A DNA stretch of 64,000 nt from Candidatus Harrisonbacteria bacterium. GTDB lineage: Bacteria > Patescibacteriota > Minisyncoccia > UBA6257 > 02-FULL-45-10c. Under the pieces are notes generated by a model. It did no database searches. It had not been told where the DNA came from and worked only from the letters and a program-made list of their open reading frames with translations. Location of the stretch: positions 458,628-522,627 of the forward strand of contig JACPTS010000001.1 in NCBI GenBank assembly GCA_016192685.1. The letters run 5' to 3'. Shown here in pieces: positions 23,938 through 57,277 of the stretch; the first letter of the stretch is position 1; the number at the start of each line of letters is the position of its first letter. The translations under genes and the position numbers were made by a program.

Positions 23938-24612
23938 GTGCCAATATTTAGAACCAAAAACGAAAATTTTTTTAAGAAATGGTCACCAGAAATGGCTTAT
24001 GTTTTAGGATTTTTCGTCGCGGACGGGAATTTAACGCTTGGAAAACGAGGAAATCATTATATTGAATTTACTTCTTGTGATAAAGAAATTTTGGAGAGAA
24101 TAAGGAAAAGTCTTGATAGTAATCATAAAATTAGCGCGCGTAAACTCCAGAAAGAAAATCACAAAATTTGTTACAGGATTCAAGTTGGTAGCAAAATTAT
24201 ATTTGAAGATTTAGTTAATTTTGGCTTCAAACCGAATAAAAGCAAAAGATTGGCTTATCCCAAAGTGCCCTCCGCGTATTTTCATCATTTTGTACGCGGC
24301 TATTTTGATGGCGATGGCCACGTGACAGAAGGATTTTATAAAAGCCGGGATAGAAAAAAGCCAAAACATTTACTTTTTGCCGGTTTTACTTCAGGAACCA
24401 AAAGTTTCTTAGAAAAATTGAAGTATAATTTAACAAAAGTTCGTATAGTTAATGGCGGCACACTATATTATTCAAAGGGCTACAGATTAAATTTTTCAAT
24501 TAGCGATAGTTTAAATCTTTATAAATTTCTTTACAAAAGCCTAGATAATCAATTATACTTAGCAAGGAAGAAAAAAGTATTTGAAAAGTATTTAAATGCG
24601 GTAGTAGCTTAG
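23938..24612 (+). CDS. LAGLIDADG homing endonuclease (double-motif), free-standing
   Basis: Two LAGLIDADG motifs, LGFFVADGNL and VRGYFDGDGHV; last 15 nt overlap the 5' exon of tRNA-Asp. Confidence 0.75.
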   Translation: MPIFRTKNENFFKKWSPEMAYVLGFFVADGNLTLGKRGNHYIEFTSCDKEILERIRKSLDSNHKISARKLQKENHKICYRIQVGSKIIFEDLVNFGFKPNKSKRLAYPKVPSAYFHHFVRGYFDGDGHVTEGFYKSRDRKKPKHLLFAGFTSGTKSFLEKLKYNLTKVRIVNGGTLYYSKGYRLNFSISDSLNLYKFLYKSLDNQLYLARKKKVFEKYLNAVVA

Positions 24613-24886
24613 TGGCCTAAAGCGCCTCCCTGTAGGTAACTGCAGCTCCTAATGGAAACTTTGGGATGAACATTCTGGGATAACGGTGAAGCCTTAAATA
24701 AAATTTATTTATGGTAATACCGTGGGAACCGAGCACATAAATCTTTATGTGCTCGGGCGCCGTAGAGACTAGATACCAGAGCGTCTAACCCTAATTTTAG
24801 GTAAGATGAAGATATAGTCCACGCCATTACGAAAGTAGTGGATTCGTGCACGGAGGAGACCGTGGGTTCAAATCCCATCTACCGCG
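24598..24886 (+). tRNA. tRNA-Asp(GUC) interrupted by a ~215-nt group I intron (exons 24598-24633 and 24849-24886; intron 24634-24848)
   Basis: 5' exon gcggtag ta gctt agtggccta aagc g cctcc ctgt; 3' exon cac ggagg agacc gtggg ttcaaat cccat ctaccgc g. Acceptor and anticodon stems complement perfectly, anticodon loop is CUGUCAC, discriminator G73. Intron has a GTAGAGACTAGA core and an ...AGATATAGTCC P7 strand similar to the Azoarcus tRNA intron; candidate P1 is exon ctgt with intron gcag (24642-45); omega-G at 24848. Confidence 0.75.
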
Positions 24887-24888
24887 CA

Positions 24889-24927
24889 ATTATAAAAGCA
24901 GAGCTTGTGCTCTGCTTTTATAATTTT
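24889..24927 (+). terminator. Intrinsic terminator after tRNA-Asp
   Basis: aattataaaagcagagc ttgt gctctgcttttataatt followed by ttt. Confidence 0.6.
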
Positions 24928-25044
24928 GATTGGAAGGGATTTGAAGGGTATTCCAAAAACATAAACTGCTTTATGTTTTTGGAAACCCCGGCTTTGAAGG
25001 AGGAGCGAGCCTGTGCTTTGCACGTGCGAGCGACGGGTGAAAAG

Positions 25045-25063
25045 AAATCCCATCTACCGCGCA
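25045..25063 (+). repeat. 19-nt direct repeat of the tRNA-Asp 3' end (aaatcccatctaccgcgca) inside a degenerate T-arm-like fragment
   Basis: Exact copy of 24870-24888, 175 nt downstream; preceded by gggtgaaaagaaatccc, which resembles a decayed T-arm. Confidence 0.5.
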
Positions 25064-25130
25064 TTAGAAAATCTTAGCGAAGAATGAGCTTTAGATTTTC
25101 TTATGCCCCGCCATTGGCGGGGCTACTTAA

Positions 25131-25640
25131 TTAATTTTTCACTGGATTTGAAATAACAATAATCCTTTTTTTCCAGCCAGTTAGGAATTTTTTAAGAGAA
25201 ACTGACCTTCGGATATTCTTTTTGGCGTCGGGGTCGTGATAAAAAATTTTATTTTTTTCCATTCCTACCAGTACTATTAAGTGCCCGCCTCTTTTTGGAT
25301 TAAAGGCATTATAAATAGAGGCCAAGAGAGGATGTTTTTTTAGGTGAATTTTTAATTGAGGAACGGCAATGTTTAAATCAAGTTTCGCCCAATCAAAATT
25401 TTTACCTTTGGCGCCATATTTTTTGGCAAGTTCTACCAGGCTGCGATGTTTCCAGCCGATTCCCGGCAAATAAGCGTCAATTTTAAGCCCCAGTTTTAAT
25501 AAATCATCCGGCTTAGTTTTTCTGCCTGAATATTCCAAAAGCATCGCCAGGCTTACAATGCCGCAGCTTTTTTTGCGCCATTTTGGGTCTTTAATATGAA
25601 GGTGTTGGGAATAAGCTGGGACGAGATGCCGGACTTTCAT
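25131..25640 (-). CDS. Papain-like C39-family-like cysteine peptidase
   Basis: Cys motif KKSCGIVSLAML, downstream His GGHLIVLVG; 169 aa. Confidence 0.5.
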   Translation of the reverse strand: MKVRHLVPAYSQHLHIKDPKWRKKSCGIVSLAMLLEYSGRKTKPDDLLKLGLKIDAYLPGIGWKHRSLVELAKKYGAKGKNFDWAKLDLNIAVPQLKIHLKKHPLLASIYNAFNPKRGGHLIVLVGMEKNKIFYHDPDAKKNIRRSVSLKKFLTGWKKRIIVISNPVKN

Positions 25641-26089
25641 AAGATTCTTTTAAGCATAACCACTGGCCCTTTTTCTTTAATAATTTCGTGTAAATTGGTT
25701 TCTTCAACGCCTTTTTTAGATGAGCCGTGAATTACTTTGTTATTGCCAATATACATCGCTACATGGCCAATGTAGACTTCACATTCCGGAAAAAGTTCGT
25801 CATCATAATGGCCTTTGGTCCCGCGGAAAAACAGCAAATCCCCGATTTGTAAATCGGAGATTTGCTGTCCTGAGCTCGTCGAAGGATTTACATTAATTTC
25901 TTTTCCGGCTTGCGCCGCCTGAAGAATGGTGCTTCTTGGAATTTCAATGCCTAGGTGTTTATATACATATTGAGTAAAAGAAGAACAATCTAAAAATTGT
26001 GGAATTTCTTCCGGCTTGGCAGCGTATTTATAAGGAGTGCCAATCAGTGAGTGGGCGATGGTTAAAATTTTTTCTTGATTTTCATTCAT
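25637..26089 (-). CDS. NlpC/P60 family cell-wall hydrolase
   Basis: Catalytic Cys DCSSF, His GHVAMYIG, 150 aa; 4-nt overlap with the downstream peptidase gene. Confidence 0.6.
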   Translation of the reverse strand: MNENQEKILTIAHSLIGTPYKYAAKPEEIPQFLDCSSFTQYVYKHLGIEIPRSTILQAAQAGKEINVNPSTSSGQQISDLQIGDLLFFRGTKGHYDDELFPECEVYIGHVAMYIGNNKVIHGSSKKGVEETNLHEIIKEKGPVVMLKRIL

Positions 26090-26110
26090 ATTCTATATAT
26101 AATATAGCAT

Positions 26111-26431
26111 AGCGGGGTAGAGCAGTAGTTAGCTCGCCTGGCTCAATAACAATATATTTGGGCGTCTTAATAAGTAATTATTAAGAAGATTACTCGTCAA
26201 ATTCGGGGAAGTCTTAAGTTGCATTTTGCGGCCTGATAATCCCGAGCTAAAATTTAATACTTTAATTGTATTAAATAAATGTGTAGAGACTAGATGGCGA
26301 GGTCGCTTTTGGCGATAAGGTATAGTCCAGACCACAAACCGTAGCACATAAAATTTTATGTGCTCGGGCGATGAAAATCGTAGTAGGTAAGCATAACCAG
26401 GAGGCCGTTGGTGCAAATCCAACCCCCGCGA
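26111..26431 (+). tRNA. tRNA(CAU) (Met or Ile2) interrupted by a ~248-nt group I intron (exons 26111-26143 and 26392-26431)
   Basis: 5' exon agcgggg ta gagc agtagtta gctc g cctgg ct; 3' exon cataa ccagg aggcc gttgg tgcaaat ccaac ccccgcg a. Intron carries GTGTAGAGACTAGATGG and TATAGTCC core elements plus a GAGCACATAA-family hairpin in the P9 region; omega-G at 26391. Position 1:72 is an A:G mismatch. The splice site (33/34) is inferred and P1 is not cleanly identified. Confidence 0.6.
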
Positions 26432-26444
26432 CATGTTTTAAACA

Positions 26445-26476
26445 AAAAATACCTTGATATAAGGTATTTTTTGTTA
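26445..26476 (+). terminator. Intrinsic terminator after the intron-containing tRNA(CAU)
   Basis: aaaaaatacctt gatat aaggtatttttt. Confidence 0.6.
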
Positions 26477-26481
26477 GCATT

Positions 26482-26609
26482 GCGGGGGTTGGATAGGGAA
26501 GGGGTCGGGAAACGGGAGTTTCCCGTGTCGGAAGGCACCGAGCACATAAAATATTTTATGTGCTCGGGTCGGAAAACCGAGGGTTTCCGAGCATTCTAAT
26601 CCCCCGCGA
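26482..26609 (+). ncRNA. tRNA-like structured RNA of unknown function (~128 nt) containing a GAGCACATAA-family hairpin
   Basis: Ends pair like an acceptor stem (gcggggg ... cccccgc g); internal hairpins cgggagtttcccg, ccgagcacataaaatattttatgtgctcgg and ggaaaaccgagggtttcc; flanked by two intrinsic terminators; no canonical D or T loops. Confidence 0.3.
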
Positions 26610-26614
26610 CTAAT

Positions 26615-26645
26615 TTAAAAATACCCGTGTGGGTATTTTTAAATT
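26615..26645. terminator. Bidirectional intrinsic terminator
   Basis: aaaaataccc gtgt gggtattttt, between the tRNA-like RNA and a convergent GT2 gene. Confidence 0.55.
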
Positions 26646-27328
26646 TTGAATCTGTATTTTAAAATTGTCCAGATTCCAATCAAGCCATCTTTAAAGGAAA
26701 TTTTCTTCCCTTCTTTAAAAGTTCGCGGCTGGTAGCGGACCGGCACTTCTTTAATAAGGCCGCCGCGCTTTAAAATTTTACAGGTAACTTCTTCGCAGAA
26801 TTCAAAACCATTGCTTTTAAGATTAAGAGATTTAAGAAAATCGGTCCGGAAAAGTTTGTAGCCGGTATTAATGTCCGTAAGATGCGAGCCAAAAAATAAA
26901 TTGGTTATAAAAGTTAAAGACCGGCCGCCAAAATAATAATGAAAATAGCCTCTGCCGGCGTTGCCAAGATTGCGTGACCCATAAACCGCCGCGGTATTTT
27001 CATCCATCACGGTAAGCATCCTCGGCCAATCTGCCGGATCATATTCTAAATCCGCGTCTTGAATTATTGCGTAGTCCCCGGTGAGATGAGGTAGGGCGGT
27101 TTTAATTGCCGCGCCTTTGCCCAGATTTTTTTGGTGGCGCAAAACCAGATATTCCGAACTTAATTTTTCCAGAATCTCTGGGGTTTTATCCGTAGAGCCG
27201 TCATCAACGATAATAATTTGTTTTTGGATTGGGCTAAGATTAACGCTCGCCACCCTCCGCAATATTTCCGCAATGGTATTTTTTTCGTTATAAACCGGAA
27301 TAATTATGGAAAGAGTTTTTAGATTCAT
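26639..27328 (-). CDS. Family 2 glycosyltransferase (dolichol-phosphate mannosyltransferase-like)
   Basis: IIIPVYNE...DDGSTD...DADL motifs (DxD), 229 aa. Confidence 0.7.
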   Translation of the reverse strand: MNLKTLSIIIPVYNEKNTIAEILRRVASVNLSPIQKQIIIVDDGSTDKTPEILEKLSSEYLVLRHQKNLGKGAAIKTALPHLTGDYAIIQDADLEYDPADWPRMLTVMDENTAAVYGSRNLGNAGRGYFHYYFGGRSLTFITNLFFGSHLTDINTGYKLFRTDFLKSLNLKSNGFEFCEEVTCKILKRGGLIKEVPVRYQPRTFKEGKKISFKDGLIGIWTILKYRFKI

Positions 27329-27352
27329 AATAATAGTTTAGAATAAGTAAGT

Positions 27353-28891
27353 ATGAAACGAAATAGCGCCTTATTTTTTGTTTTAGCGGCTGTTTTAATT
27401 TCCGCCTTTTTTAATTTTAGCTCGCCGAATATTCCGGACCCGGACAGTTTTTACCATCTCCGCCACGCGGAAATCCTGCGGCGCAACGGCTTATTAGATG
27501 CCAGTTTTCCTTGGACCTATTTTTCCGCCATTCGGACCGAGGGCGCGGATATTTGGTATGGCTTCCACCTTTTGTTAATCCCATTTATTTTTAGCGGCGG
27601 GACAGCGCTGGGGATTAAAGTTGCCGGTGTTTTTTTAACCGCAACTCTTTTGTTGGCTTATTATTGGGTGGTAAAGCGGCAGAAATTTGTTTGGCCGGCG
27701 CTTTGGCCGTTTTTATTTTTTTTGGCAGTGCCGAACGCGCTATTTCAACTGTTGATGGTGCGGCCGCATATGGTGTCTTTAGCGCTGGCAATGCTTTTAT
27801 TATCTTTTTTAAGCTTCGGTCTTTGGTTTCCGATATTTTTAATCAGCGCGGGAATTACTTTTTTCCATCTGAATTTTTTTTGGATCGGGCCGGGGATAGC
27901 GCTGGCTGTATTTTTAGCGTCTATTTTGGAAAAAACTTTTAGCCGTTCGCTTAAAAAAGTTTTAGCAGTGGCGCTCGGGACAGCGGCTGGCGCGCTGTTT
28001 AGGCCGGAACCAATATCCGCCTTGAAACTTACTTATATTCAGGTAGTGAAGCTGCTGCTTGAAAAACAAAGTGACTTGCCGCTTTTATTCAGCCGGGAAC
28101 TGGCGCCTTTGAGCTTAAAAACGCTTTCCCAGACTTCATTTCTTTTTCTTTTGCTTTGGCTGGCGGCTATCTTGGTTAGCGGTTGGACGCTCTACCATTT
28201 TCGCGAGCAGATTAAAAAAATTCCTTCCGAAGCAAAAATATTCTTACTGACGAGCGGCCTGCTCTCAATTGCTTTTTTCTTAATGAGTCTTTTTATCGCG
28301 CGGCGTTCTTATATTCTATGGGTGGCTTTTGGAACGCTTTTCATCGGAAGCGTTGCCAGTTTTCTTTTCCCGAAAAAATCCCAGCAAGATTGGTTTTTGG
28401 TGCTGACAGCGGTTATTTTTTTGATAATGGTTCCGTATACGCTTTCTCAAAACGGGATTAGTATGGCGCGGAATGCCTCGCCGCCGGATTATTTGCGGGA
28501 AGCGGCGGAATGGCTCCGCAATCACAGTAATTCTGGCGATATTGTTTTTAACACCCATTGGGATAATTTCTCCCCGCTTTTTTTCTGGAATCAGACCAAT
28601 TATTATATCGGCGGCATGGACCCGATTTTCCAATATGCCTATAATTCGGAGCTTTATTGGAAATTTCATCATATTTCCGCTGATGAATTTGGCGATTTGA
28701 CTTGCGGCGCAATCATTTGCGATAAATCCAATGTTCAGGATATTTATTCAGTATTAAAAAAAGATTTTCAGGTAAAATATGTCTTGGTGGAAAAAAGGCG
28801 TAACCCAAATTTTCATCGCTGGCTGGAATTAGACCGGCGTTTTGAAAAGCAGTTTGATAATGGAAAAGAAGTGATTTTTCTGTTAAAATAA
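27353..28891 (+). CDS. Polytopic membrane protein, possible GT-C-type glycosyltransferase
   Basis: More than 10 predicted TM segments, divergently placed next to a GT2 gene; no motif-level proof. Confidence 0.3.
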   Translation: MKRNSALFFVLAAVLISAFFNFSSPNIPDPDSFYHLRHAEILRRNGLLDASFPWTYFSAIRTEGADIWYGFHLLLIPFIFSGGTALGIKVAGVFLTATLLLAYYWVVKRQKFVWPALWPFLFFLAVPNALFQLLMVRPHMVSLALAMLLLSFLSFGLWFPIFLISAGITFFHLNFFWIGPGIALAVFLASILEKTFSRSLKKVLAVALGTAAGALFRPEPISALKLTYIQVVKLLLEKQSDLPLLFSRELAPLSLKTLSQTSFLFLLLWLAAILVSGWTLYHFREQIKKIPSEAKIFLLTSGLLSIAFFLMSLFIARRSYILWVAFGTLFIGSVASFLFPKKSQQDWFLVLTAVIFLIMVPYTLSQNGISMARNASPPDYLREAAEWLRNHSNSGDIVFNTHWDNFSPLFFWNQTNYYIGGMDPIFQYAYNSELYWKFHHISADEFGDLTCGAIICDKSNVQDIYSVLKKDFQVKYVLVEKRRNPNFHRWLELDRRFEKQFDNGKEVIFLLK

Positions 28892-28904
28892 TAATTACAA
28901 AATT

Positions 28905-28976
28905 GCCTGTGTAGCTCAGTGGTAGAGCGAGGTCTTCATAAGGCCGAGGTCGCAGGTTCGATCCCTGCCACAGGCA
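28905..28976 (+). tRNA. tRNA(CAU) (Met or Ile2), intron-less
   Basis: gcctgtg ta gctc agtggta gagc g aggtc ttcataa ggccg aggtc gcagg ttcgatc cctgc cacaggc a. Confidence 0.75.
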
Positions 28977-29005
28977 CTAAATCAGTTCAAAGCAATTTTA
29001 ATTTT

Positions 29006-29017
29006 TGCCACAGGCAC
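29006..29017 (+). repeat. 12-nt direct repeat of the tRNA(CAU) 3' end (tgccacaggcac)
   Basis: Exact copy of 28966-28977, 40 nt downstream, abutting the start of the 29022 ORF. Confidence 0.4.
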
Positions 29018-29021
29018 CACG

Positions 29022-29666
29022 ATGAAAAAGCATTTTGGAAGATTCATTGTTTTAAGCGCAGTTTTGGTTGGCGCGTATTTTTTATTAAATAGAGAAACCG
29101 TTTCCAGTTATACTATTCCGTTTATTGAAGTTCGAACTGGGGAGATTGCCGAAAAACTTAGCGGTTTGACTGGGGGAATAAAAAAATATGCTGGTGGGCA
29201 GGCGACTGTCGCGGTTTCGGAATTAGCAGATGATTTTGTCAGTTCAGTTTCAGAAAAAGGTGGACAGTTGACGCGGCAAATTTTTGACGGCGCTAAAAAT
29301 AATGCCTTTAATTTTTTCCGCCAGGCAGTCAGTGAAAAAGTGGATAGCGTCGGCGCTAATTTAGGAATTGATGTCCAGCAAATTGGTAAGGAAATTACGC
29401 CGTCGGAGCAAGAATCGCCGATTATCTTTGGAATTCAAGCCGGCAGTCCGGCGTATTTTACGATTAAAAATCGAGAACTAGAAAAAATCAGTTATGAGGT
29501 AGATTGGCGGGATGGCAATAAAAAGAACGGTGATGTATCGGTTAAAAAATCAGTGACTGTTTCCCGTATTTGGAGTTCTCCCGGCGAATATTACCCAAGA
29601 TTTAAAATCATTACCTCACGCGGCGAGAAAATTTATGAAATCGCAATTTCCGTGATTTCGTTGTAA
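29022..29666 (+). CDS. Secreted hypothetical protein
   Basis: N-terminal signal/TM segment; no motif. Confidence 0.4.
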   Translation: MKKHFGRFIVLSAVLVGAYFLLNRETVSSYTIPFIEVRTGEIAEKLSGLTGGIKKYAGGQATVAVSELADDFVSSVSEKGGQLTRQIFDGAKNNAFNFFRQAVSEKVDSVGANLGIDVQQIGKEITPSEQESPIIFGIQAGSPAYFTIKNRELEKISYEVDWRDGNKKNGDVSVKKSVTVSRIWSSPGEYYPRFKIITSRGEKIYEIAISVISL

Positions 29667-29676
29667 AATTCTTACT

Positions 29677-30756: not shown

Positions 30757-30759
30757 AAT

Positions 30760-31143: not shown

Positions 31144-31150
31144 TAACGGT

Positions 31151-33100: not shown

Positions 33101-33179
33101 TTTTTTGTTTGATTTTAACTAGTAGATTTGCTATACTAATAAAGTAGAAATAGATATAAAAAGGCCGGGCCTTTTTTAA

Positions 33180-35129
<1,950 letters not shown>

Positions 35130-47748: not shown

Positions 47749-47755
47749 CTAATGA

Positions 47756-48897: not shown

Positions 48898-48936
48898 TTT
48901 TATTTAAGTAGTCTTTGCTCTTAGAAAATTGAATAA

Positions 48937-50739: not shown

Positions 50740-50767
50740 CGGAGGAATTTTTGTTATAATAAATCCG

Positions 50768-52945
50768 ATGTATCTTAAACATTTGGAATTGATAGGTTTT
50801 AAATCTTTTGCCCCTAAAACCATTTTGGATTTTCCGGCGGGCATTATCGGAATCGTCGGTCCCAACGGCAGCGGCAAAAGCAATATTATTGACGCAGTTC
50901 GCTGGATTTTAGGCGAACGGGAAGCCAAGAATCTTCGCGGCGGAAAAGCCGAAGATTTAATTTTTGCCGGCACTCCCAAGAGGCCGCGGATGGGCATGGC
51001 GCAGGTGACGCTTACTTTTGATAATGCCTCCGGATTTTTCCCGGTGGATTACAAAGAAGTTTCTATTCAACGCCGGATTGAGCGGGACGGTAATTCCCAT
51101 TATTTTTTGAATAAAGCTGAAGTCCGCTTGCGGGATATTATTGATTTTTTCGCGAAAGTCCGGCTCGGCACCCGCGGGCTTTCTATCATTAACCAGGGTT
51201 CCAGCGATTTATTTGTCCGGGCTGCTCCGGAAGAGCGGCGGGCGATGATTGAAGAAATTTTAGGTTTGCGGCAATACCAATTAAAAAAGCATGAAGCTGA
51301 CCGGAAATTAAAAAACACCCGGATTAACATTGAAAAAGTGCGGGCGATGATTGAGGAGGTGGCGCCCCACCTTAGGTTTTTAAAGCGGCAGACCGCCAAA
51401 TGGGGAAAGCTTTCCGATTTGGAAAAAGAAATAAAAGACCTGGAAAATATTTATTTTGCCCATAAATTGAAAGAAATTCGGGAGGGCGTTGAGAGATTGG
51501 ATCCCCAGATTAAAAAATTAGACAGCGAAATCGGCGGCAAACAAAATCAACTGCGGGTTTTGAAAATGGTCGTGGAAAAAATTGAAGCCGGAAAGCCGGG
51601 AAAAAATTCCGGCGGTGAATTGCGGAAAAAGCGGGAAGTTTTGCTCCAGGAACGTTCGGAGATTGAAAGGGAAGTCGGCAAATTGGAAGCGAAAATTGAA
51701 TTTTTGAATTCGGTAGCGGCCAGCGAAAATTTAGACCTGCGCTCCGGCGAACTTTTAACGGTTTTGGAAGAAGTAAAAGACAGTCTGGAAAAGCTGATGC
51801 AAGAAAAGAATTTAGAAAAGGTTCATTCGGATTTGCGGGCGCTGCTGGAGAAAGTGGCCGGCGTTACTGACCGGTCTTCAAAAAAGAAAAACGAAATTGC
51901 TGATTTAAAATCAGTCAAAGATGCTTTGTTAAAAAAGCTGGTTCCGATCCGGGACGAACTATCCGCTTTAACCTCTAAGGAAGAAGCCTCGGCAAAAGAA
52001 TTTGAAGAGTTTAACGACCAATTCCGCGGCGCTTTTGAAAAAATGGAAATTAAGAAAGAAGAAATTTCCGGATTAGACAAAGAAAAAAATAAGCTGCTTT
52101 TTGATTTAGAGCGATTTAATCTTAGAAAACAGGATTTGGAAATGCAGATAAATCAGATTGGCAGAAAGTTGGACGAGTTTATAAGTCCAATAAGTCCTAT
52201 AGGTCTTATAGACGATTTACCGGCGCTGGAAAGGAAGATGCTTAGGCTTCGTTCGGAAATCGCCGGGATTGGGGAGGTGGACCAGGCTTTAATTAAAGAG
52301 GCCGAGGAAACCGAAACCCGCCATAATTTTTTGGCTGGCCAGCTGGCGGATTTGGAAAAAGCGGCCACCGACCTGGAACAGCTGATTCAAGAGTTGGAAG
52401 AAAAAATTGATAATGAATTCCAGCAATCTTTCAGGAAAATCAATACGGAATTTGATAAATTTTTTAATTTGATGTTCGGCGGCGGCAAAGCGAAATTGGT
52501 TTTAGAAAAGCCTGAGCCGAAAGTCCAGGCGGCGGTGGAGGGGGTAACGGATCCGGAAATGAAAGAGCATCGGAAGGAAACCGAAGATTTGGAAACCGAG
52601 GAATTAAAGCAAACCGGAATTGAAATTGATTTAAGCTTGCCGCGGAAACGGATTCATGGATTGGATATGCTCTCCGGCGGCGAAAAAAGTTTGGTTTCCA
52701 TTGCGGCCCTTTTTGCCTTGATTTCGGTCAGCCCGCCGCCGTTTTTGGTACTGGATGAAGTGGACGCGGCTTTGGATGAAAAAAATACCAAGCGGTTTGC
52801 CGATATTGTCCGGGATTTTTCAAAAAAAACCCAGTTTTTAATTGTCACCCATAACCGCGCCACCATGGAAGCCGCTAATATTCTTTACGGCGTCACGATG
52901 GAAGAAGACGGAGTATCTAAAGTTTTATCATTAAAGCTTGAATAG
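50768..52945 (+). CDS. smc: SMC-family chromosome partition ATPase (short, 725 aa)
   Basis: N-terminal Walker A GPNGSGKSN, C-terminal signature LSGGEKSL and Walker B LVLDEVDAALD; coiled-coil middle, shorter than canonical SMC. Confidence 0.6.
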   Translation: MYLKHLELIGFKSFAPKTILDFPAGIIGIVGPNGSGKSNIIDAVRWILGEREAKNLRGGKAEDLIFAGTPKRPRMGMAQVTLTFDNASGFFPVDYKEVSIQRRIERDGNSHYFLNKAEVRLRDIIDFFAKVRLGTRGLSIINQGSSDLFVRAAPEERRAMIEEILGLRQYQLKKHEADRKLKNTRINIEKVRAMIEEVAPHLRFLKRQTAKWGKLSDLEKEIKDLENIYFAHKLKEIREGVERLDPQIKKLDSEIGGKQNQLRVLKMVVEKIEAGKPGKNSGGELRKKREVLLQERSEIEREVGKLEAKIEFLNSVAASENLDLRSGELLTVLEEVKDSLEKLMQEKNLEKVHSDLRALLEKVAGVTDRSSKKKNEIADLKSVKDALLKKLVPIRDELSALTSKEEASAKEFEEFNDQFRGAFEKMEIKKEEISGLDKEKNKLLFDLERFNLRKQDLEMQINQIGRKLDEFISPISPIGLIDDLPALERKMLRLRSEIAGIGEVDQALIKEAEETETRHNFLAGQLADLEKAATDLEQLIQELEEKIDNEFQQSFRKINTEFDKFFNLMFGGGKAKLVLEKPEPKVQAAVEGVTDPEMKEHRKETEDLETEELKQTGIEIDLSLPRKRIHGLDMLSGGEKSLVSIAALFALISVSPPPFLVLDEVDAALDEKNTKRFADIVRDFSKKTQFLIVTHNRATMEAANILYGVTMEEDGVSKVLSLKLE

Positions 52946-52994
52946 AGGATGCTTGACACTAAAAGCTAAAACCTATAAGCTAAAAGCTACTTTT

Positions 52995-53333
52995 ATGTTA
53001 ATGATTCGTCTCCAGCGCCGAGGGAAAAAGCACCAAGCGGCTTATCGCGTGGTGGTCGGCGAGAAAAGATCTAAATTGCTCGGCAAGCAGACCGATGATT
53101 TGGGCTGGTATGATCCGCATTCTGCCAAATTGGATTTGAATAAAGACCGCCTTCAACACTGGCTTTCCGCGGGAGCCAAAATGAGTGATACCGTGAATAA
53201 TCTTTTAGTTAGTGCTGGTATGGTTCCGGGTAAAAAAATTGCAGTTCATAAAAAAGCGCAAATTTCCGGCGGCCAAAAATCTGAAGCAGCTCCAGCAGTT
53301 GCTGAAACTCCAAAAACTGAAACGTCAAAATAG
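52995..53333 (+). CDS. rpsP: 30S ribosomal protein S16 with Lys/Ala-rich C-terminal extension
   Basis: MLMIRLQRRGKKHQAAYRVVV S16 N-terminus; ORF track start 52938 is probably too far upstream. Confidence 0.75.
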   Translation: MLMIRLQRRGKKHQAAYRVVVGEKRSKLLGKQTDDLGWYDPHSAKLDLNKDRLQHWLSAGAKMSDTVNNLLVSAGMVPGKKIAVHKKAQISGGQKSEAAPAVAETPKTETSK

Positions 53334-53336
53334 GAT

Positions 53337-53365
53337 TTGACAAATATTTTATTATCTGATATATT
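53337..53365 (+). promoter_or_regulatory. Candidate sigma70 promoter (TTGACA, 17 nt, TATATT)
   Basis: Upstream of the KH-domain gene. Confidence 0.3.
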
Positions 53366-53414
53366 ATTATAAATTAGCTCAAAGGTCGGTAAAGGTAAGT
53401 AAATAAAATCAAGA

Positions 53415-53747
53415 ATGTTCGGAAAAGCTAAAGATAAAGATATGGCACAGAAACCACATGATCAGGAATTTCTGGAATATCTCGTCAAGTCTATTGTTGA
53501 GAATCCAGATAAAGTAGAAGTTGACCGTAAGGTAGACGAAATGGGAGTTCTGCTTTCTTTGAAAGTGGACCCGAAAGATATGGGTCTGGTTGTCGGAAGA
53601 CAAGGTTCCACGGCCAAGGCCATCCGCTCGCTTTTGAGAATCGTCGGCGTTCGGAATAACGCCCGCGTTAATCTCAAGATTGAAGAGCCGGAAGGTTCTA
53701 CCCGCGGTCCGCGCATGGAGCGCGGAGACAGAGATATGAATCTCTAA
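53415..53747 (+). CDS. KH-domain RNA-binding protein (YlqC/UPF0109-like)
   Basis: GxxG-containing KH fold VGRQGSTAKAIRSLLR; sits in the rpsP-KH-trmD conserved neighbourhood. Confidence 0.65.
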   Translation: MFGKAKDKDMAQKPHDQEFLEYLVKSIVENPDKVEVDRKVDEMGVLLSLKVDPKDMGLVVGRQGSTAKAIRSLLRIVGVRNNARVNLKIEEPEGSTRGPRMERGDRDMNL

Positions 53748-53759
53748 AAGTATTTCGCT

Positions 53760-53784
53760 AAAATCCCCCAAAGCGGGGGATTTT
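53760..53784 (+). terminator. Intrinsic terminator
   Basis: aaaatccccc aaag cgggggatttt. Confidence 0.6.
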
Positions 53785-53828
53785 AGTTTATAATAAGTCT
53801 TATAGACTTATCGGACTTATTTAATTTT

Positions 53829-54488
53829 ATGCGTTTTGATATAATAACAATTTTCCCGAAAATTTTAGATTCTTATTTCAGCGAATCACTTTTAAAAAAA
53901 GCCCAAGATAAGGGTTTAATTAAAATTCAAATTCATAATCTTAGAGATTTCACCGGCGATAAACATCATAAGGTTGACGATACGCCGTATGGCGGCGGGC
54001 CTGGGATGGTATTAAAAGCTGAACCGGTTTATAAGGCGGTTCAAGCTATAAAGTTAAAAGTTAAAAGTTCTAAGTTAAAAGTTAGGACAATTTTATTGTC
54101 CTTGCGCGGCAAAAAGTTTGACCAGAAAGAAGCGCATCGTTTGGCAAAATACGGCCAATTGGTTTTTATTTGCGGCCGTTATGAGGGCGTGGATGAGCGG
54201 GTGGCAAAATATGTGGCGGATGAGGAGCTGTCAATCGGTGATTATGTGCTTTCCGGCGGCGAATTGCCGGCTGCGATTGTGATTGAAGCAGTGAGCCGGC
54301 TTATTCCCGGCATGCTTGGAAAATCCGAGTCTTTGGAGGAGCGCAAGGGAACTTATCCGGTTTATACCAAGCCGGAAAGAATAGAGTTGAAAGTGAAAAG
54401 TGGAAAGTTAAAAGTATTTAAAGTTCCGCCAATTTTGTTATCCGGAGACCATAAAAAAATTGAAGAATGGAGGGAGAAAAATTCTTAG
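53829..54488 (+). CDS. trmD: tRNA (guanine37-N1)-methyltransferase
   Basis: MRFDIITIFP N-terminus, SPOUT knot region GRYEGVDERV; carries two AAGTT-repeat insertions. Confidence 0.85.
   Translation: MRFDIITIFPKILDSYFSESLLKKAQDKGLIKIQIHNLRDFTGDKHHKVDDTPYGGGPGMVLKAEPVYKAVQAIKLKVKSSKLKVRTILLSLRGKKFDQKEAHRLAKYGQLVFICGRYEGVDERVAKYVADEELSIGDYVLSGGELPAAIVIEAVSRLIPGMLGKSESLEERKGTYPVYTKPERIELKVKSGKLKVFKVPPILLSGDHKKIEEWREKNS
54051..54083 (+). repeat. AAGTT-periodic in-frame insertion in trmD coding KLKVKSSKLKV
   Basis: aagttaaaagttaaaagttctaagttaaaagtt. Confidence 0.5.
54386..54425 (+). repeat. Second AAGTT-periodic insertion in trmD coding ELKVKSGKLKVFKV
   Basis: gttgaaagtgaaaagtggaaagttaaaagtatttaaagtt. 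Confidence 0.5.
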
Positions 54489-54531
54489 GGGCTTGCGGTA
54501 ATTACTAAGTTTATATATAATGTAACTCTAT

Positions 54532-55296
54532 ATGGAAGATTTATTGACTAGGGAAGAATTAAATAATAATCCGGATAACTTGCCGGTTCTGGAAGAAATG
54601 ATGAAGGCCGGTTTGTTTGTCGGCCGCAGGAGTTCTAAAACTCATCCGAAAATGCGGGGTTTTATTTTAGGCATCCGGAATAAATCTTCGTTAATTGATT
54701 TGGAAGAGACTTTGAAAATGCTGGAAAAAGCAATGGAATTTATAAAAACTAAAGCCGCGGAAAAAGAAGGGAATATTTTATTAGTCGGTACCGCGCCGGT
54801 GGCTAAAAACTCCGTTGAAAAAACCGCCAAACAGCTGGATTTGCCTTTTGTAACGGAGCGTTGGCTGGGCGGGACTTTGACTAATTTTAAGACTTTGTCA
54901 AAAAGGATTGTTTATTTCAAAAAATTAAAAAGCGATAAAGAGGCGGGACGGCTGGATAAATATACCAAAAAAGAACGTTTGGATATTGACCGTCAAATTC
55001 AAAAAATGACCACGATGTTTAGCGGCGTGGAGAAAATGGAATCTTTGCCGGCGGCGCTTTTCGTGGCTGACGTTAATGCGCATTTGACTGCGGTCAGGGA
55101 AGCGAGGCGTTTGAAAATCCCCATTGTCGGGATTATGAATACCGATACTGACCCGGAATTAGTAGACTATCCGATTCTTGCCAATGATCGCAGTAAAGTC
55201 AGCATTGATTGGATTTTAGCGCGTCTGGAAAAGGCGGTGGAAGAAGGACGGGCGCTGGCAAGAGAAGCGGGAAAAGCCGAAGATAAAAAAAGTTAA
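54532..55296 (+). CDS. rpsB: 30S ribosomal protein S2
   Basis: 254 aa with conserved S2 regions; rpsB-tsf order. Confidence 0.85.
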   Translation: MEDLLTREELNNNPDNLPVLEEMMKAGLFVGRRSSKTHPKMRGFILGIRNKSSLIDLEETLKMLEKAMEFIKTKAAEKEGNILLVGTAPVAKNSVEKTAKQLDLPFVTERWLGGTLTNFKTLSKRIVYFKKLKSDKEAGRLDKYTKKERLDIDRQIQKMTTMFSGVEKMESLPAALFVADVNAHLTAVREARRLKIPIVGIMNTDTDPELVDYPILANDRSKVSIDWILARLEKAVEEGRALAREAGKAEDKKS

Positions 55297-55298
55297 TC

Positions 55299-55739
55299 GT
55301 GACTACTGTTATCCAAAAATTAAGGGAGGAAACCGGCGCCGGAGTGATGGATTGCAAGCGGGCTTTGGAGGAAGCCGGCGGAGATTTTAATTTAGCGAAA
55401 CAACTTATTGAAAAACAGGGGCTGGTGAAAGCGGCCAAAAAAGCCGAGCGGGCCACTGGCGCTGGCCTTTTAGAGGCTTATGTGCATAACGGCCGGGTCG
55501 GAGTTTTGCTGGAGCTTCGTTCCGAAACTGATTTTGTTGCTCACTCGGAGCCTGTTAAAGCGTTAGCCCATAATTTGGCGCTTCACGTTGCGGCTATGGC
55601 TCCGGAGACGGTTGATGATTTATTAAAACAGCCGTATGCGAGGGATGAGGCAAAAACCGTAGAGGAAGTAATTAAGGGAACGATTGCTATAGTTGGTGAG
55701 AATTTAAAGGTGGCCAGATTTTCCCGATATCAGATATAA
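55299..55739 (+). CDS. tsf: Elongation factor Ts (short form)
   Basis: N-terminal UBA-like IQKLREETGAGVMDCKRALEEAGGD; 146 aa. Confidence 0.8.
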   Translation: MTTVIQKLREETGAGVMDCKRALEEAGGDFNLAKQLIEKQGLVKAAKKAERATGAGLLEAYVHNGRVGVLLELRSETDFVAHSEPVKALAHNLALHVAAMAPETVDDLLKQPYARDEAKTVEEVIKGTIAIVGENLKVARFSRYQI

Positions 55740-55753
55740 GATATAATAGAATC

Positions 55754-56080
55754 GTGTACAACTTTATCCTTCAAACCATTGTAATGTTGAGCCTCGGCGC
55801 CTTGATTTATCTGGTGGCGCGGGCTGTACCGCGAGTTTCCGAAACCGAGATTAAAACTTTCTCTCCCGGTGATTCTCTTGATCGGTGGATTAAAAAGTTG
55901 CCGCTGGAAAAAATGGACGCTTGGTTAAGCAGCCAATTGGAAAAATTCTTGCGGAAATTTAAAGTAGCGGTTTTGAAATTAGATAATCTTTTAACTAAGC
56001 ATCTTTCTAATTTAAAATCCGTCGCTACCGAAGAAAAACCAACCTTATTTGAAAAAAAAGAGGACAATGATATAAAGTAA
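55754..56080 (+). CDS. Hypothetical small membrane protein
   Basis: N-terminal TM segment, 108 aa. Confidence 0.35.
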   Translation: MYNFILQTIVMLSLGALIYLVARAVPRVSETEIKTFSPGDSLDRWIKKLPLEKMDAWLSSQLEKFLRKFKVAVLKLDNLLTKHLSNLKSVATEEKPTLFEKKEDNDIK

Positions 56081-56092
56081 AAAGTAGAATCT

Positions 56093-56179
56093 GGGCAGAT
56101 ACCAAAGCGGTCAAATGGGACTGGCTGTAGACCAGTTGGCTTTACGCCTTCGGGGGTTCGAATCCCTCTCTGCCCACCA
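56093..56179 (+). tRNA. tRNA-Tyr(GUA), long variable arm, CCA encoded
   Basis: gggcaga ta cca aagcggtcaaa tgg g actgg ctgtaga ccagt + variable arm + ggggg ttcgaat ccctc tctgccc a cca. Confidence 0.8.
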
Positions 56180-56240
56180 TTGAAATATAAAATTATCTTT
56201 GATAAGCTATTTTTAGCGTTAACCTTAAAAACCGAATAAG

Positions 56241-56486
56241 ATGACTCGTAATGAACTTATCTTAAAGATTCAAGCGGCTTCCAAAGAGGATGATAAAGAG
56301 TTTCAGGAAATTATCGCCACCCTGCTTGATCAAGGTTTTTTGACAGAAACAGATTTATGCCGAGAGATTGGTGCTTCAAAACCAACTATTCGCAGATGGA
56401 AAGAAGGAAAAAGTTCTCCGCTTCCGTTGATGCGACTACATCTTTTCAAACGATTGATTAAAAAACTTCAAGAAAACGACCTTTAA
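56241..56486 (+). CDS. Hypothetical protein, possible HTH DNA-binding
   Basis: 81 aa; segment TDLCREIGASKPTIRRWKEG is helix-turn-helix-like. Confidence 0.3.
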   Translation: MTRNELILKIQAASKEDDKEFQEIIATLLDQGFLTETDLCREIGASKPTIRRWKEGKSSPLPLMRLHLFKRLIKKLQENDL

Positions 56487-56527
56487 AATAACTTGCGTCA
56501 GCAAGTTATTTTTAATATTCTAAGTTT

Positions 56528-56860
56528 ATGCCTTATATTGCCCCAAAAGACAGAAAAAAGATTGACCCGCTGATTGATAAATTGGCTGGCGCGATTGTAA
56601 AAGAAGCCAAAGAATCTAAATATGACGCCGCTTTTGCCGGTTTATTGAATTACACTTGCACTCGTTTAGCTTTGAAAGTCACCCGGGCTTTGTTCGGTAA
56701 AATGCGCTACTGGATTATTGCCACGGTTATCGGAACTTTTAACAATATCGCGGACGAATTTTACCGCCGGATCGGCCTTCCTTATGAAAATAAACAAATG
56801 AAAAAGAGCGGCGATGTTGATCTTTACGAGGAATATCAAAAGGAAATAGAGTTAGATTAA
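56528..56860 (+). CDS. Hypothetical protein
   Basis: 110 aa, no motif. Confidence 0.3.
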   Translation: MPYIAPKDRKKIDPLIDKLAGAIVKEAKESKYDAAFAGLLNYTCTRLALKVTRALFGKMRYWIIATVIGTFNNIADEFYRRIGLPYENKQMKKSGDVDLYEEYQKEIELD

Positions 56861-56869
56861 TTTTTGTAA

Positions 56870-56940
56870 GCCTCCTTAGCTTAGTGGCAAAGCAACGGTT
56901 TTGTAAACCGTAGACGTCAGTTCGATTCTGACAGGAGGCT
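56870..56940 (+). tRNA. tRNA-Thr(UGU)
   Basis: gcctcct ta gctt agtggca aagc a acggt tttgtaa accgt agac gtcag ttcgatt ctgac aggaggc t. Confidence 0.8.
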
Positions 56941-56988
56941 CAATTTGAAAAATATTTCTAAGACAGTTATAATTAATAACAGATTTTT

Positions 56989-57277
56989 GCCGATGTAGCT
57001 CAGTGGTAGAGCAACTCCATGGTGGGTCGCAAGATCCTGGGAAGTCAGACTTCCATCCGCCCATTCGCCGAGTAATTGGTGAATGAATCCCGAATAACGG
57101 TTAAAAACCAAGTCAAACTTGGCTAAGACCGTGGCCGCCGTAGGCGGCCCGAACGACTGACAAGGGGCTCCGGTAATTTCGGAGTAAGATACAGTCTAGT
57201 CCTCTTATAATCCCTTATTGGAGAAATAGAGGTGTAAGCGAAGGAGTAGGTCGTCGGTTCAATCCCGACCATCGGCT
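56989..57277 (+). tRNA. tRNA-Thr(GGU) interrupted by a ~217-nt group I intron (exons 56989-57023 and 57241-57277)
   Basis: 5' exon gccgatg ta gctc agtggta gagc a actcc atggt; 3' exon aa ggagt aggtc gtcgg ttcaatc ccgac catcggc t. Exons restore perfect acceptor and anticodon stems. Intron has gactg...cagtc P7-like pairing and a ...AAGATACAGTCTAGTCC segment; omega-G at 57240. Confidence 0.6.

What the first reader, a model, noticed from the sequence alone, without database searches (positions are those of the whole stretch)
24598..57277. Three group I intron-containing tRNA genes (Asp-GUC, CAU, Thr-GGU) in one 33-kb stretch
In each case the exon halves reconstruct a canonical cloverleaf with perfect acceptor and anticodon-stem complementarity across a 215-250 nt insert in the anticodon loop. 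The inserts carry group I core signatures (GTAGAGACTAGA and the ...ATAGTCC P7 strand, Azoarcus-like) and end in G. Bacterial tRNA group I introns are known mainly in tRNA-Leu(UAA), fMet, Ile and Arg of cyanobacteria and proteobacteria. Introns in tRNA-Asp and tRNA-Thr, and three intron-bearing tRNAs so close together, would be unusual. The inferred insertion positions differ between genes (35/36 for Asp, 36/37 for Thr, 33/34 for CAU).
Basis: partly seen in the sequence, partly recalled or inferred. Interest (0 to 1): 0.6.

Follow-up and report, generated by a model that had tools for sequence, protein, structure and literature searches.

The report
Three transfer-RNA genes (Asp, initiator-type Met, Thr) in this ultra-small-bacterium (Patescibacteria) chromosome are each split in the anticodon loop by a short group I (self-splicing ribozyme) intron; this is real and correctly read, and it extends a known but thinly documented kind rather than being a new one.

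Summary
Removing the inserts gives clean cloverleafs. Relatives carry uninterrupted orthologs with matching junction sequence at all three sites.

Introns 1 and 2 pass Rfam's group I threshold (59.0 and 62.4 bits; cut-off 50). They belong to a large family of tRNA-resident introns that is also abundant in phage contigs.

Intron 3 gets no Rfam match, so its case is indirect:
- homologs sit at the same site in three related contigs;
- an explicit P1-P9 group I structure shows double changes in 19 of 49 pairs, against 1-4 in slid controls;
- those homologs score E about 1e-10 on my tRNA-intron model and E about 1e-6 on Rfam's.

The host is a Paceibacteria-like Patescibacterium. Group I introns in Patescibacteria tRNA genes are already the subject of a 2025 preprint that I could not read, so this is a new member of a known kind.

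The most interesting extra is an intact free-standing LAGLIDADG endonuclease gene that abuts tRNA-Asp. It is present in 4 of 4 intron-bearing loci and 6 of 22 intron-less loci. That suggests a two-part mobile unit, which I could not test. Splicing itself is inferred, not shown.

The parts
24598..24633 (+). tRNA-Asp(GUC) 5' exon (ends ...CUGU, U35)
   Evidence: ARAGORN intron mode and spliced cloverleaf. Aligns to uninterrupted tRNA-Asp of L124 up to the junction.
24634..24848 (+). Group I intron 1 (215 nt). P1 = exon CUGU + AG (24630-24635) with CUGCAG (24640-24645), with a U.G wobble at the splice site. P7 = GACUA 24767-24771 with UAGUC 24815-24819. The 3'-terminal G is at 24848.
   Evidence: RF00028 59.0 bits, gathering 50. 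100.6 bits on my model R1. Homologous introns at the same site in L125, L157 and L160, with compensatory changes.
24849..24886 (+). tRNA-Asp(GUC) 3' exon (starts CAC GGAGG; G73 discriminator; no encoded CCA)
26111..26143 (+). Initiator-type tRNA(CAU) 5' exon (ends ...GGCU, U33)
   Evidence: ARAGORN. A1xG72 mismatch, A11-U24 and A73 read from the sequence. Uninterrupted ortholog L124:5311-5386.
26144..26391 (+). Group I intron 2 (248 nt). P1 = exon GCU + CAA (26141-26146) with UUGGGC (26158-26163), with a U.G wobble. P7 = GACUA 26288-26292 with UAGUC 26323-26327. The 3'-terminal G is at 26391.
   Evidence: RF00028 62.4 bits. 102.4 bits on R1 although left out of its training set. Orthologous introns at the same site in L128 and L130.
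26392..26431 (+). Initiator-type tRNA(CAU) 3' exon (starts CAUAA CCAGG)
56989..57023 (+). tRNA-Thr(GGU) 5' exon (ends ...AUGGU, U36)
   Evidence: L121 has an uninterrupted Thr(GGU) with the same anticodon arm, and uninterrupted Thr(GGU) genes occupy the same place in L324, L334, L337 and L341.
57024..57240 (+). Group I intron 3 (217 nt), a divergent lineage. P1 = exon GGU + GGGU (57021-57027) with AUCCGCC (57055-57061), with a U.G wobble. P7 = GACUG 57155-57159 with CAGUC 57192-57196. The 3'-terminal G is at 57240.
   Evidence: No RF00028 hit. 18.5 bits, E about 2e-4, on R1, the third-best hit in the window. Fold z-score -4.8. Homologs at the same site in L336, L338 and L340. 91.8% of cells paired and 19 of 49 pairs with double changes. 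Homologs score 39-40 bits on R1 and 37-39 bits on RF00028.
57241..57277 (+). tRNA-Thr(GGU) 3' exon (starts AA GGAGU)
23938..24612 (+). Free-standing double-motif LAGLIDADG endonuclease gene (224 aa). Its last four codons and stop are the first 15 nt of tRNA-Asp.
   Evidence: PF14528 51.8 bits. PDB 2dch 'putative homing endonuclease' E=8e-5. phrog_4645 'endonuclease' E=5e-40. Ten intact copies, all next to tRNA-Asp; 4 of 4 intron-bearing loci against 6 of 22 intron-less loci. It is an indel relative to L124.
24729..24756 (+). Genome-wide repeat hairpin (CCGAGCACAUAAA..UUAUGUGCUCGG) forming the distal P6 of intron 1
   Evidence: Four copies in the window against 0 expected. Absent from the homologous introns of L125, L157 and L160.
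26344..26363 (+). The same repeat hairpin inside intron 2, in the loop of the small hairpin between P7 and P9
24530..24559 (+). Promoter-like hexamers upstream of tRNA-Asp, inside the end of the LAGLIDADG ORF
   Evidence: 10 of 12 match. Consensus match only.
26075..26103 (+). Promoter-like hexamers 8 nt upstream of the CAU tRNA
   Evidence: 10 of 12 match. Consensus match only.
56945..56973 (+). Promoter-like hexamers 16 nt upstream of tRNA-Thr(GGU)
   Evidence: 11 of 12 match. Consensus match only.

Best explanation
Three ORF-less group I introns interrupt the anticodon loops of tRNA-Asp(GUC), an initiator-type tRNA(CAU) and tRNA-Thr(GGU) on the chromosome of a Paceibacteria-like Patescibacterium.

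Proposed mechanism. Each pre-tRNA is transcribed from its own promoter-like site. The intron folds into the P3-P9 core. Its internal guide sequence pairs with the anticodon-loop nucleotides to form P1, placing a U.G wobble at the 5' splice site: U35, U33 and U36 respectively. A free guanosine bound in P7 attacks there. The intron's 3'-terminal G then enters the same pocket, and the freed 5' exon attacks the 3' splice site. The exons are held together by the anticodon stem. The ligated product is a normal tRNA, to which CCA is added later.

The sequence, the structure, the covariation and the exact junctions are shown. The catalysis and its efficiency are inferred from family membership.

The introns are sporadic among close relatives, so they are gained and lost like mobile elements. 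Mobility probably depends on endonucleases supplied in cis in some alleles (a 152-aa ORF inside the L128/L130 version of intron 2) or from an adjacent gene (the LAGLIDADG gene abutting tRNA-Asp).
For: Junctions and exons.

Group I membership of introns 1 and 2: RF00028 59.0 and 62.4 bits. RNAalifold on 36 tRNA-resident introns recovers P2-P6 and P8, with compensatory changes in 26 of 33 pairs. Intron 2, held out of training, scores 102 bits on the model built from that set.

Intron 3: a full-length 18.5-bit hit, E about 2e-4, the third-best in the window. Three distinct homologs at the same site. 91.8% of cells paired and 19 of 49 pairs with double changes, against 1-4 in slid controls and 0 of 500 shuffles as good. 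Homologs L338 and L340 score 39.8 and 39.0 bits on R1 and 39.5 and 37.5 bits on RF00028, E about 1e-6. The model built from intron 3's family cross-hits RF00028-certified introns.

All three have U at -1, G at the 3' end and a U.G wobble in P1 (read from the sequence; invariant).

Sporadic distribution: Asp interrupted in 3 of 26 relatives' loci; CAU interrupted in L128 and L130 but not in L124 or L131; Thr interrupted in L336, L338 and L340 but not in L121, L324-L334, L337 or L341.

Host: LigA, GatA, GyrB, DnaE, S2 and L33. The closest genome is Ca. Paceibacter. L33 homologs are all Paceibacterota/Parcubacteria.
Against: No expression or splicing data. Intron 3 fails RF00028 outright, and its own score on my model is modest, with rough E-values. 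The covariation test rests on 5 sequences (4 effectively distinct), aligned by a model built from the tested structure. Introns 1 and 2 carry an extra repeat hairpin that could impair folding, although it sits in peripheral loops. I cannot see the rest of the genome, so intact second copies of these tRNAs cannot be excluded.
Confidence: 0.85

Rival explanations
1. The inserts are decayed, no longer splicing introns, so the three genes are pseudogenes and functional copies lie elsewhere in the genome.
For: No splicing data. Repeat hairpins have invaded introns 1 and 2. Intron 3 has a very low RF00028 score. Only 64 kb of the genome is visible.
Against: The catalytic core strings are intact, and the helices keep pairing through compensatory changes across homologs, which implies selection on the fold. 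The exons are undamaged and closely match relatives' functional genes, with the same anticodon arms in the nearest orthologs. The genes sit in the conserved single-copy arrangement Tyr-Thr-Thr-rpmG-Trp. The hairpins lie in peripheral loops (P6, and the hairpin before P9) that vary freely in the family. No intact Asp, Thr-GGU or initiator gene is found in the window.
Confidence: 0.07
2. Insert 3 is not a group I intron but some other structured insertion in tRNA-Thr, removed by another route or not at all.
For: No RF00028 match even at a lax threshold on 341 nt. Its core strings differ from those of introns 1 and 2. Its P1 has an unusually long, variable loop.
Against: It can be laid out in full as P1-P9 with the P3/P7 pseudoknot, and that layout covaries. 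It has U at -1 with a U.G wobble, and a terminal G. Its homologs reach E about 1e-10 on the tRNA-intron model and E about 1e-6 on RF00028. Its family model hits certified group I introns. The strings GACTGA...AAGATACAGTC occur in many RF00028 introns scoring up to 100 bits.
Confidence: 0.05
3. Gene 3 is tRNA-Arg(GCG) with the insert at 33/34, as ARAGORN labels it.
For: ARAGORN's call.
Against: That splice choice puts A, or with the other register a 5' G, at positions where group I introns need G and U. Uninterrupted genes at the syntenic site are Thr(GGU), with the same anticodon arm in L121. G1-C72 and C2-G71 fit Thr.
Confidence: 0.01
4. Assembly artefact: the inserts are chimeric joins in a metagenome assembly.
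For: The window probably comes from a metagenome-assembled genome.
Against: Homologous introns at the same three sites occur in independent contigs from other samples (L125, L157, L160; L128, L130; L336, L338, L340).
Confidence: 0.01

Closest known systems
Group I introns (commonly classed as subgroup IC3; subgroup from memory, untested here) in bacterial and plastid tRNA anticodon loops: cyanobacterial/plastid tRNA-Leu(UAA), cyanobacterial tRNA-fMet, Azoarcus tRNA-Ile(CAU), Agrobacterium tRNA-Arg(CCU)
   Same: Small (about 200-250 nt), ORF-less or ORF-optional, inserted 3' of a U in the anticodon loop, with the exons paired in the anticodon stem. Introns 1 and 2 share the GUAGAGACUAGA core string with Azoarcus (Azoarcus sequence from memory) and score above the RF00028 gathering threshold. 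The review literature places bacterial group I introns mainly in tRNA and rRNA genes (PMC3984707, PMC4090602).
   Different: The host tRNAs Asp(GUC) and Thr(GGU), and the 35/36 site, are not in the classic list (from memory and from searches). The host phylum is Patescibacteria. Intron 3 is outside the usual tRNA-intron lineage.
[quoted passage not shown] 2025, bioRxiv 10.1101/2025.07.03.662931; remark in Lui et al. 2021, PMC8172020)
   Same: Same phylum, same kind of element in the same kind of gene. Lui et al. state that some CPR tRNAs have group I introns that hide them from tRNA finders.
   Different: I could read only the preprint's title. I do not know whether Asp-GUC, Thr-GGU or the sites 33/34, 35/36 and 36/37 are reported there, or what its 'novel insertion site' is.
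tRNA-resident group I introns in phage contigs
   Same: Intron 2 matches the phage tRNA-Met(CAU) introns L091, L097 and L115 in site (U33|C34), core and 3' tail (...CGUAGURGUAAG).
   Different: Those sit on viral contigs and are mostly in Leu(UAA). The window is a bacterial chromosome.
[quoted passage not shown]
   Same: An ORF-less intron with an intact endonuclease gene immediately next to the interrupted gene. Here the endonuclease gene ends 21 nt upstream of the intron insertion site, so the two would be co-converted.
   Different: The known cases are phage protein-coding genes. Here the gene is a bacterial tRNA and the enzyme is a LAGLIDADG. The cleavage target is unknown, and six loci have the endonuclease without the intron.

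Membership tests
Group I intron (Rfam RF00028) | Score at or above the family's gathering threshold (50 bits) | tested here: met
   Intron 1: 59.0 bits. Intron 2: 62.4 bits. This row applies to introns 1 and 2 only.
Group I intron (Rfam RF00028) | Same threshold, for intron 3 | tested here: not met
   No hit at E<=10 on 341 nt. Its homologs at the same site, L338 and L340, reach 39.5 and 37.5 bits (E 1e-6 and 5e-6), still below 50. The threshold is not decisive here: L125, a close homolog of intron 1, also falls below it at 46.7 bits.
Group I intron | P1 helix between the end of the 5' exon and an internal guide sequence, with a U.G wobble at the splice site | tested here: met
   Read from the sequence for all three. 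For intron 3 the three exon pairs, including U.G, are invariant in 5 of 5 sequences while the P1 loop varies from 10 to 35 nt.
Group I intron | Guanosine as the last intron nucleotide | tested here: met
   G at 24848, 26391 and 57240. These positions are fixed by comparison with uninterrupted orthologs.
Group I intron | Conserved core: P3-P8 with the P3/P7 pseudoknot, and the P4-P6 domain, supported by covariation | tested here: met
   Family of introns 1 and 2: 26 of 33 predicted pairs have compensatory changes. Family of intron 3: 19 of 49 pairs have double changes against 1-4 in slid controls; P7 is invariant. Caveat: few sequences, and the alignment was fitted to the structure.
Group I intron | Guanosine-dependent self-splicing | not testable with these tools
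   Needs an in vitro transcript with GTP and Mg2+, or RNA-seq across the junctions.
tRNA-resident intron family (my model R1, used as a proxy; conventionally subgroup IC3, which I did not test) | Significant full-length match to a covariance model built from 36 tRNA-resident introns | tested here: met
   Intron 2 (held out) 102.4 bits. Intron 1 100.6 bits. Intron 3 18.5 bits, E about 2e-4, so weak. Its homologs score 39-40 bits, E about 1e-10. I file introns 1 and 2 as members and intron 3 as a divergent relative.
Functional tRNA after splicing | Canonical cloverleaf, with the expected anticodon loop and identity elements | tested here: met
   ARAGORN on the spliced sequences. The Asp loop is CUGUCAC with G73. 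The CAU tRNA has a 1x72 mismatch, A11-U24 and A73, but only two of the three G-C pairs usual in initiator anticodon stems. Thr has G1-C72 and C2-G71. Orthologs are uninterrupted.
Collaborative homing unit (free-standing endonuclease + ORF-less intron) | Intact homing-endonuclease gene adjacent to the intron-bearing gene, and an intron without an ORF | tested here: met
   LAGLIDADG ORF 23938-24612, with both catalytic motifs conserved in 10 of 10 copies. No ORF of 60 aa or more on the sense strand of the intron.
Collaborative homing unit | The endonuclease cleaves the intron-less allele at or near the intron insertion site, and the intron-bearing allele is immune | not testable with these tools
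   Only an association: 4 of 4 against 6 of 22, Fisher p=0.014, with no phylogenetic correction.

The most novel reading that the evidence does not exclude
The tRNA-Asp intron and the LAGLIDADG gene that overlaps the 5' end of the tRNA form a two-part mobile unit on a bacterial chromosome (collaborative homing). The endonuclease would cut HEG-less tRNA-Asp genes, and the intron 21 nt downstream would be carried along and/or protect its own allele. A second, unclassified 152-aa ORF family plays the same role for the CAU and Thr introns: it is found inside the intron in L128 and L130, and free-standing against the intron-bearing tRNA-Thr in L338. If so, Patescibacteria tRNA genes would be a natural series of stages in the assembly of mobile introns from separate ribozyme and endonuclease parts.
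Probability: 0.3. Interest if true: 0.6.

Novelty: new member of a known kind. Interest (0 to 1): 0.42.

Why it matters
Standard tRNA finders miss such genes. Default ARAGORN and Rfam's tRNA model saw 4 of the 7 tRNA genes here. As a result, genomes of Patescibacteria look as if they lack essential tRNAs, here Asp, the initiator and Thr-GGU. The case adds host tRNAs and an insertion position (35/36) to the classic short list, and it supports one simple rule: every site lies 3' of a U in the anticodon loop.

If these are the only copies, the cell's translation depends on three ribozymes working.

The presence/absence series among close relatives, with endonuclease genes inside, beside or absent from the introns, offers material for studying how mobile introns are assembled and lost.

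Tried and rejected
1. Whole-window Rfam at gathering found only intron 2. Intron 1 was lost to the speed filters and appeared only in the narrower scan.
2. A focused Rfam scan of insert 3 found nothing.
3. The core-string pattern GTAGAGACTAGA..RTATAGTCC proved generic, with at least 120 viral hits, so I ran no further search on it.
4. The insert 3 string GACTGA..AAGATACAGTC is also generic and sits mostly in non-tRNA introns.
5. The S2-based genome scan gave only two loci, one of them useful.
6. Most L33-neighbour look-ups gave uninterrupted Thr genes. Only the third round found homologs of intron 3.
7. ARAGORN's long-insert calls in L147 (Gly) and L197 (Ala) have no Rfam support at all. R1 and R2 found nothing there either. 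I treat them as false positives. Its L130 'Leu-CAA' call was a mislabelled interrupted initiator-type tRNA.
8. The 152-aa ORF inside the L128/L130 intron has no Pfam, NCBIfam or meaningful PDB match, and shows no similarity to the window's LAGLIDADG.
9. The exact window L33 is not on record, so the source sample stays unknown.
10. The 2025 preprint and Paquin et al. 1997 are not held, so I could not verify the published insertion site of the cyanobacterial fMet intron.

Full report
**Observation.** Default ARAGORN and Rfam's tRNA model find four uninterrupted tRNA genes in the window: Met 28905, Tyr 56093, Thr-UGU 56870 and Trp 57552. With introns allowed, ARAGORN adds three split genes at 24598-24887, 26111-26432 and 56989-57278, with inserts of 215, 248 and 217 nt. 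All three gave canonical cloverleafs: Asp(GUC), a CAU tRNA and Thr(GGU).

**Junctions.** The junctions are fixed by comparison with relatives.
- The closest relative without introns, L124, aligns to the window through both halves of tRNA-Asp and of the CAU tRNA, with the inserts missing at the predicted points.
- Uninterrupted tRNA-Thr(GGU) genes sit at the same syntenic spot (Tyr, Thr-UGU, Thr-GGU, rpmG, Trp) in L121, L324-L334, L337 and L341. L121 has the same anticodon arm as the spliced gene 3.
- This overrules ARAGORN's label for gene 3, Arg-GCG with the insert at 33/34.
- The Asp site (U35|C36) and the Thr site (U36|A37) are unique. The CAU site is formally ambiguous over a CA repeat. 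Only U33|C34 gives a U before the intron and a G at its end.

**Host.** The window encodes LigA, GatA, GyrB, DnaE, S2, a short EF-Ts and L33. The nearest species genome is a Candidatus Paceibacter MAG, with S2 at 72% identity. All named L33 homologs are Paceibacterota, Parcubacteria or Patescibacteria. The host is therefore a Patescibacteria (CPR) chromosome.

**Introns 1 and 2.**
- RF00028 scores them 59.0 and 62.4 bits against a gathering score of 50. The whole-window run lost intron 1 to the speed filters.
- By eye, P1 is CUGU|AG with CUGCAG in intron 1 and GCU|CAA with UUGGGC in intron 2. Each has a U.G wobble at the splice site.
- Their core string is not specific to this genome. The pattern GTAGAGACTAGA..RTATAGTCC has at least 120 hits in viral contigs, and 85 of 122 motif hits lie inside split tRNA genes.
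- I aligned intron 1, three homologous tRNA-Asp introns from relatives (L125, L157, L160) and 32 phage tRNA introns. RNAalifold then recovered P2, P3, P4, P5, P6 and P8, with compensatory changes in 26 of 33 pairs.
- A covariance model built from that alignment (R1) scores intron 2 at 102.4 bits, although intron 2 was left out of the training set. It scores intron 1 at 100.6 bits.
- R1 also found orthologs of intron 2 in L128 and L130 (108.5 and 106.5 bits; RF00028 55.6 and 54.9). They sit at the same U33|C34 site of the same initiator-type tRNA.

**Intron 3.**
- RF00028 gives nothing, even on a 341-nt slice.
- Its core reads CGACUGA...AAGAUACAGUC. This is a P7 variant with G-C in place of A-U. 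The string is common in RF00028-certified introns of phage and giant-virus contigs, but only 1 of 136 such hits is in a tRNA.
- The insert folds far better than shuffles (z = -4.8) into P2, P4-P5, P6, P7 enclosing P8, and P9.
- With filters off, R1 ranks it third in the whole window at 18.5 bits (E about 2e-4, full length). The next hit scores 12.9 bits. So the window holds no further intron of this type.
- Following L33 neighbours, I found homologs at the same site in L336, L338 and L340, plus a partial one in L339.
- Across them the P1 3' strand (...GCC, directly before P2) always pairs with G34-G35-U36, with a U.G wobble. The P1 loop ranges from 10 to 35 nt.
- I built a model from these four sequences using my manual structure (R2). 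It finds a phage-contig element, L290, at 61.7 bits. Weaker hits coincide with RF00028 introns of 55-110 bits.
- On the five-sequence alignment, the explicit P1-P9 structure with the P3/P7 pseudoknot has 91.8% of cells paired. 19 of 49 pairs show double changes, against 1-4 when partners are slid. 0 of 500 shuffles do as well.
- Caveats: there are few sequences, the alignment was fitted to the structure, and the structure was derived from one of the sequences.
- Independent of that alignment, L338 and L340 score 39.8 and 39.0 bits on R1 (E about 1e-10) and 39.5 and 37.5 bits on RF00028 (E about 1e-6).
- I conclude that intron 3 is a group I intron of a lineage distinct from the usual tRNA type. 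Its nearest relative found, L290, interrupts a phage ORF that looks like a lytic transglycosylase.

**Mechanism.** The sequence shows every element the group I pathway needs: a U.G wobble in P1, a P7 pocket, a terminal G, and exons that pair as the anticodon stem. Anabaena pre-tRNA splicing is reported to need that exon pairing (title of Zaug et al. 1993, listed in PMC3984707). Promoter-like hexamers sit 8-39 nt upstream of each gene. No CCA is encoded. Self-splicing to mature tRNA is therefore the most likely reading, and it is inferred rather than shown.

**Insertion sites.** In the phage set the sites are U33|C34 (Met-CAU: L091, L097, L115), U34|N35 (Leu-UAA, Thr-UGU, Arg-UCU) and U36|A37 (L070 CAU). 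Together with U35|C36 here, every site is simply 3' of a U in the anticodon loop.

**Distribution and mobility.**
- The introns are sporadic. tRNA-Asp is interrupted in 3 of 26 relatives' loci. The CAU tRNA is interrupted in L128 and L130 but not in L124, L131, L176, L177 or L202. Thr-GGU is interrupted in three distinct loci and uninterrupted in at least five.
- None of the window's introns has an ORF. The L128/L130 version of intron 2 carries a 152-aa antisense ORF in its P1 loop. That ORF has no family match. A 30%-identical homolog lies free-standing against the intron-bearing tRNA-Thr of L338.
- In the window, ORF 23938-24612 is an intact double-motif LAGLIDADG endonuclease: PF14528; PDB 2dch at E=8e-5; phrog_4645 at E=5e-40.
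- Its last codons and stop are the first 15 nt of tRNA-Asp, so it ends 21 nt upstream of the intron site.
- Ten intact copies with conserved catalytic motifs occupy this position in relatives. The gene is an indel relative to L124.
- It accompanies the intron in 4 of 4 loci and is present in 6 of 22 intron-less loci (Fisher p=0.014, not corrected for phylogeny). No locus has the intron without it.
- This matches the layout of 'collaborative homing' described for phages (PMC3984707). The enzyme's target is unknown, and a maturase or unrelated role is not excluded.

**Known or new.** Reviews place bacterial group I introns mainly in tRNA and rRNA genes (PMC3984707, PMC4090602). From memory, the classic tRNA hosts are Leu-UAA, fMet, Ile-CAU and Arg-CCU. 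For Patescibacteria, Lui et al. 2021 remark that some tRNAs have group I introns. [quoted passage not shown] Searches found no report of Asp-GUC or Thr-GGU hosts in the held library. I therefore rate this a new member of a known kind. Three of the seven tRNA genes in the window are interrupted, a higher share than in the relatives sampled.

**Verdict.** Interest is moderate. The endonuclease-intron pairing is the part most worth pursuing.

Noticed in passing
window 23938-24612 (+): An intact free-standing LAGLIDADG endonuclease gene whose last codons and stop codon lie inside the first 15 nt of tRNA-Asp. The same arrangement occurs in 9 relatives. It is found in all 4 intron-bearing tRNA-Asp loci and in 6 of 22 intron-less ones.
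   Followed up: yes
window 24733-24752, 26344-26363, 26542-26563, 57497-57517: Four copies of a palindromic hairpin GCACATAA..TATGTGC, with 0 expected by chance. Two are inside peripheral loops of introns 1 and 2. One forms the rpmG terminator. One lies downstream of the CAU tRNA. This looks like a genome-wide repeat or terminator element that has also entered the introns.
   Followed up: partly
window 57593-59808 (-), next to tRNA-Trp 57552-57623: A large serine recombinase ORF (57593-59077) whose end overlaps the 3' part of tRNA-Trp, followed by a Rep-like ORF (PF23343, 59074-59808). This is probably an element integrated at tRNA-Trp. Relatives have other genes after tRNA-Trp.
   Followed up: no
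window 61074-61190 (+): Strong Rfam match to LOOT RNA (84.8 bits, gathering 46.4). It overlaps the start of ORF 61099-62361, inside the putative integrated element.
   Followed up: no
L001-L120 (IMG/VR viral contigs): 85 of 122 hits of the group I core motif lie inside split tRNA genes on viral contigs. Most are Leu-UAA; others are Thr-UGU, Arg-UCU, Met-CAU and a UCA suppressor-type tRNA. A 2014 review (PMC3984707) stated that all phage introns then known were in protein-coding genes. ARAGORN mislabels many of the Leu-UAA genes as 'Tyr(ata)'.
   Followed up: partly
L130:10562-11020 (-), L128:4252-4707 (-), L338:459-1076 (+): A 152-aa ORF family with no Pfam, NCBIfam or PDB match. It is encoded antisense in the P1 loop of the initiator-tRNA intron in L128 and L130. 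It also occurs free-standing, overlapping the start of the intron-bearing tRNA-Thr(GGU), in L338. It is a candidate new homing-endonuclease family.
   Followed up: partly
L121:4633-4893; L334:1623-1892; L335:153-422; L341:1974-2222 and 2673-2936: Small GIY-YIG ORFs (PF01541) sit beside tRNA-Thr(GGU) and rpmG in several relatives whose Thr gene is uninterrupted. None is seen in the intron-bearing loci (window, L336, L338). There are too few loci to test this.
   Followed up: no
window 23531-23904: A 118-aa ORF with no family match (23531-23887), followed by a strong bidirectional terminator-like hairpin (23886-23904). It is absent from the closest relatives L123, L124 and L125, so it is a further insertion just upstream of the LAGLIDADG gene.
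   Followed up: no
L290:5895-6122: The closest relative of intron 3 outside tRNA-Thr is on a viral contig, where it interrupts an ORF with lytic-transglycosylase-like motifs (...ESGGNPRAINLWDINARRG | ...IDPTFRAYAMPG). This hints at exchange of this intron lineage between phages and Patescibacteria.
   Followed up: partly
L321:5551-6024 (-): A viral-contig tRNA-Asn(GUU) with a 388-nt insert that carries the GACTGA..AAGATACAGTC core but gets no RF00028 hit at gathering. It is another tRNA intron of the intron 3 type of core.
   Followed up: no
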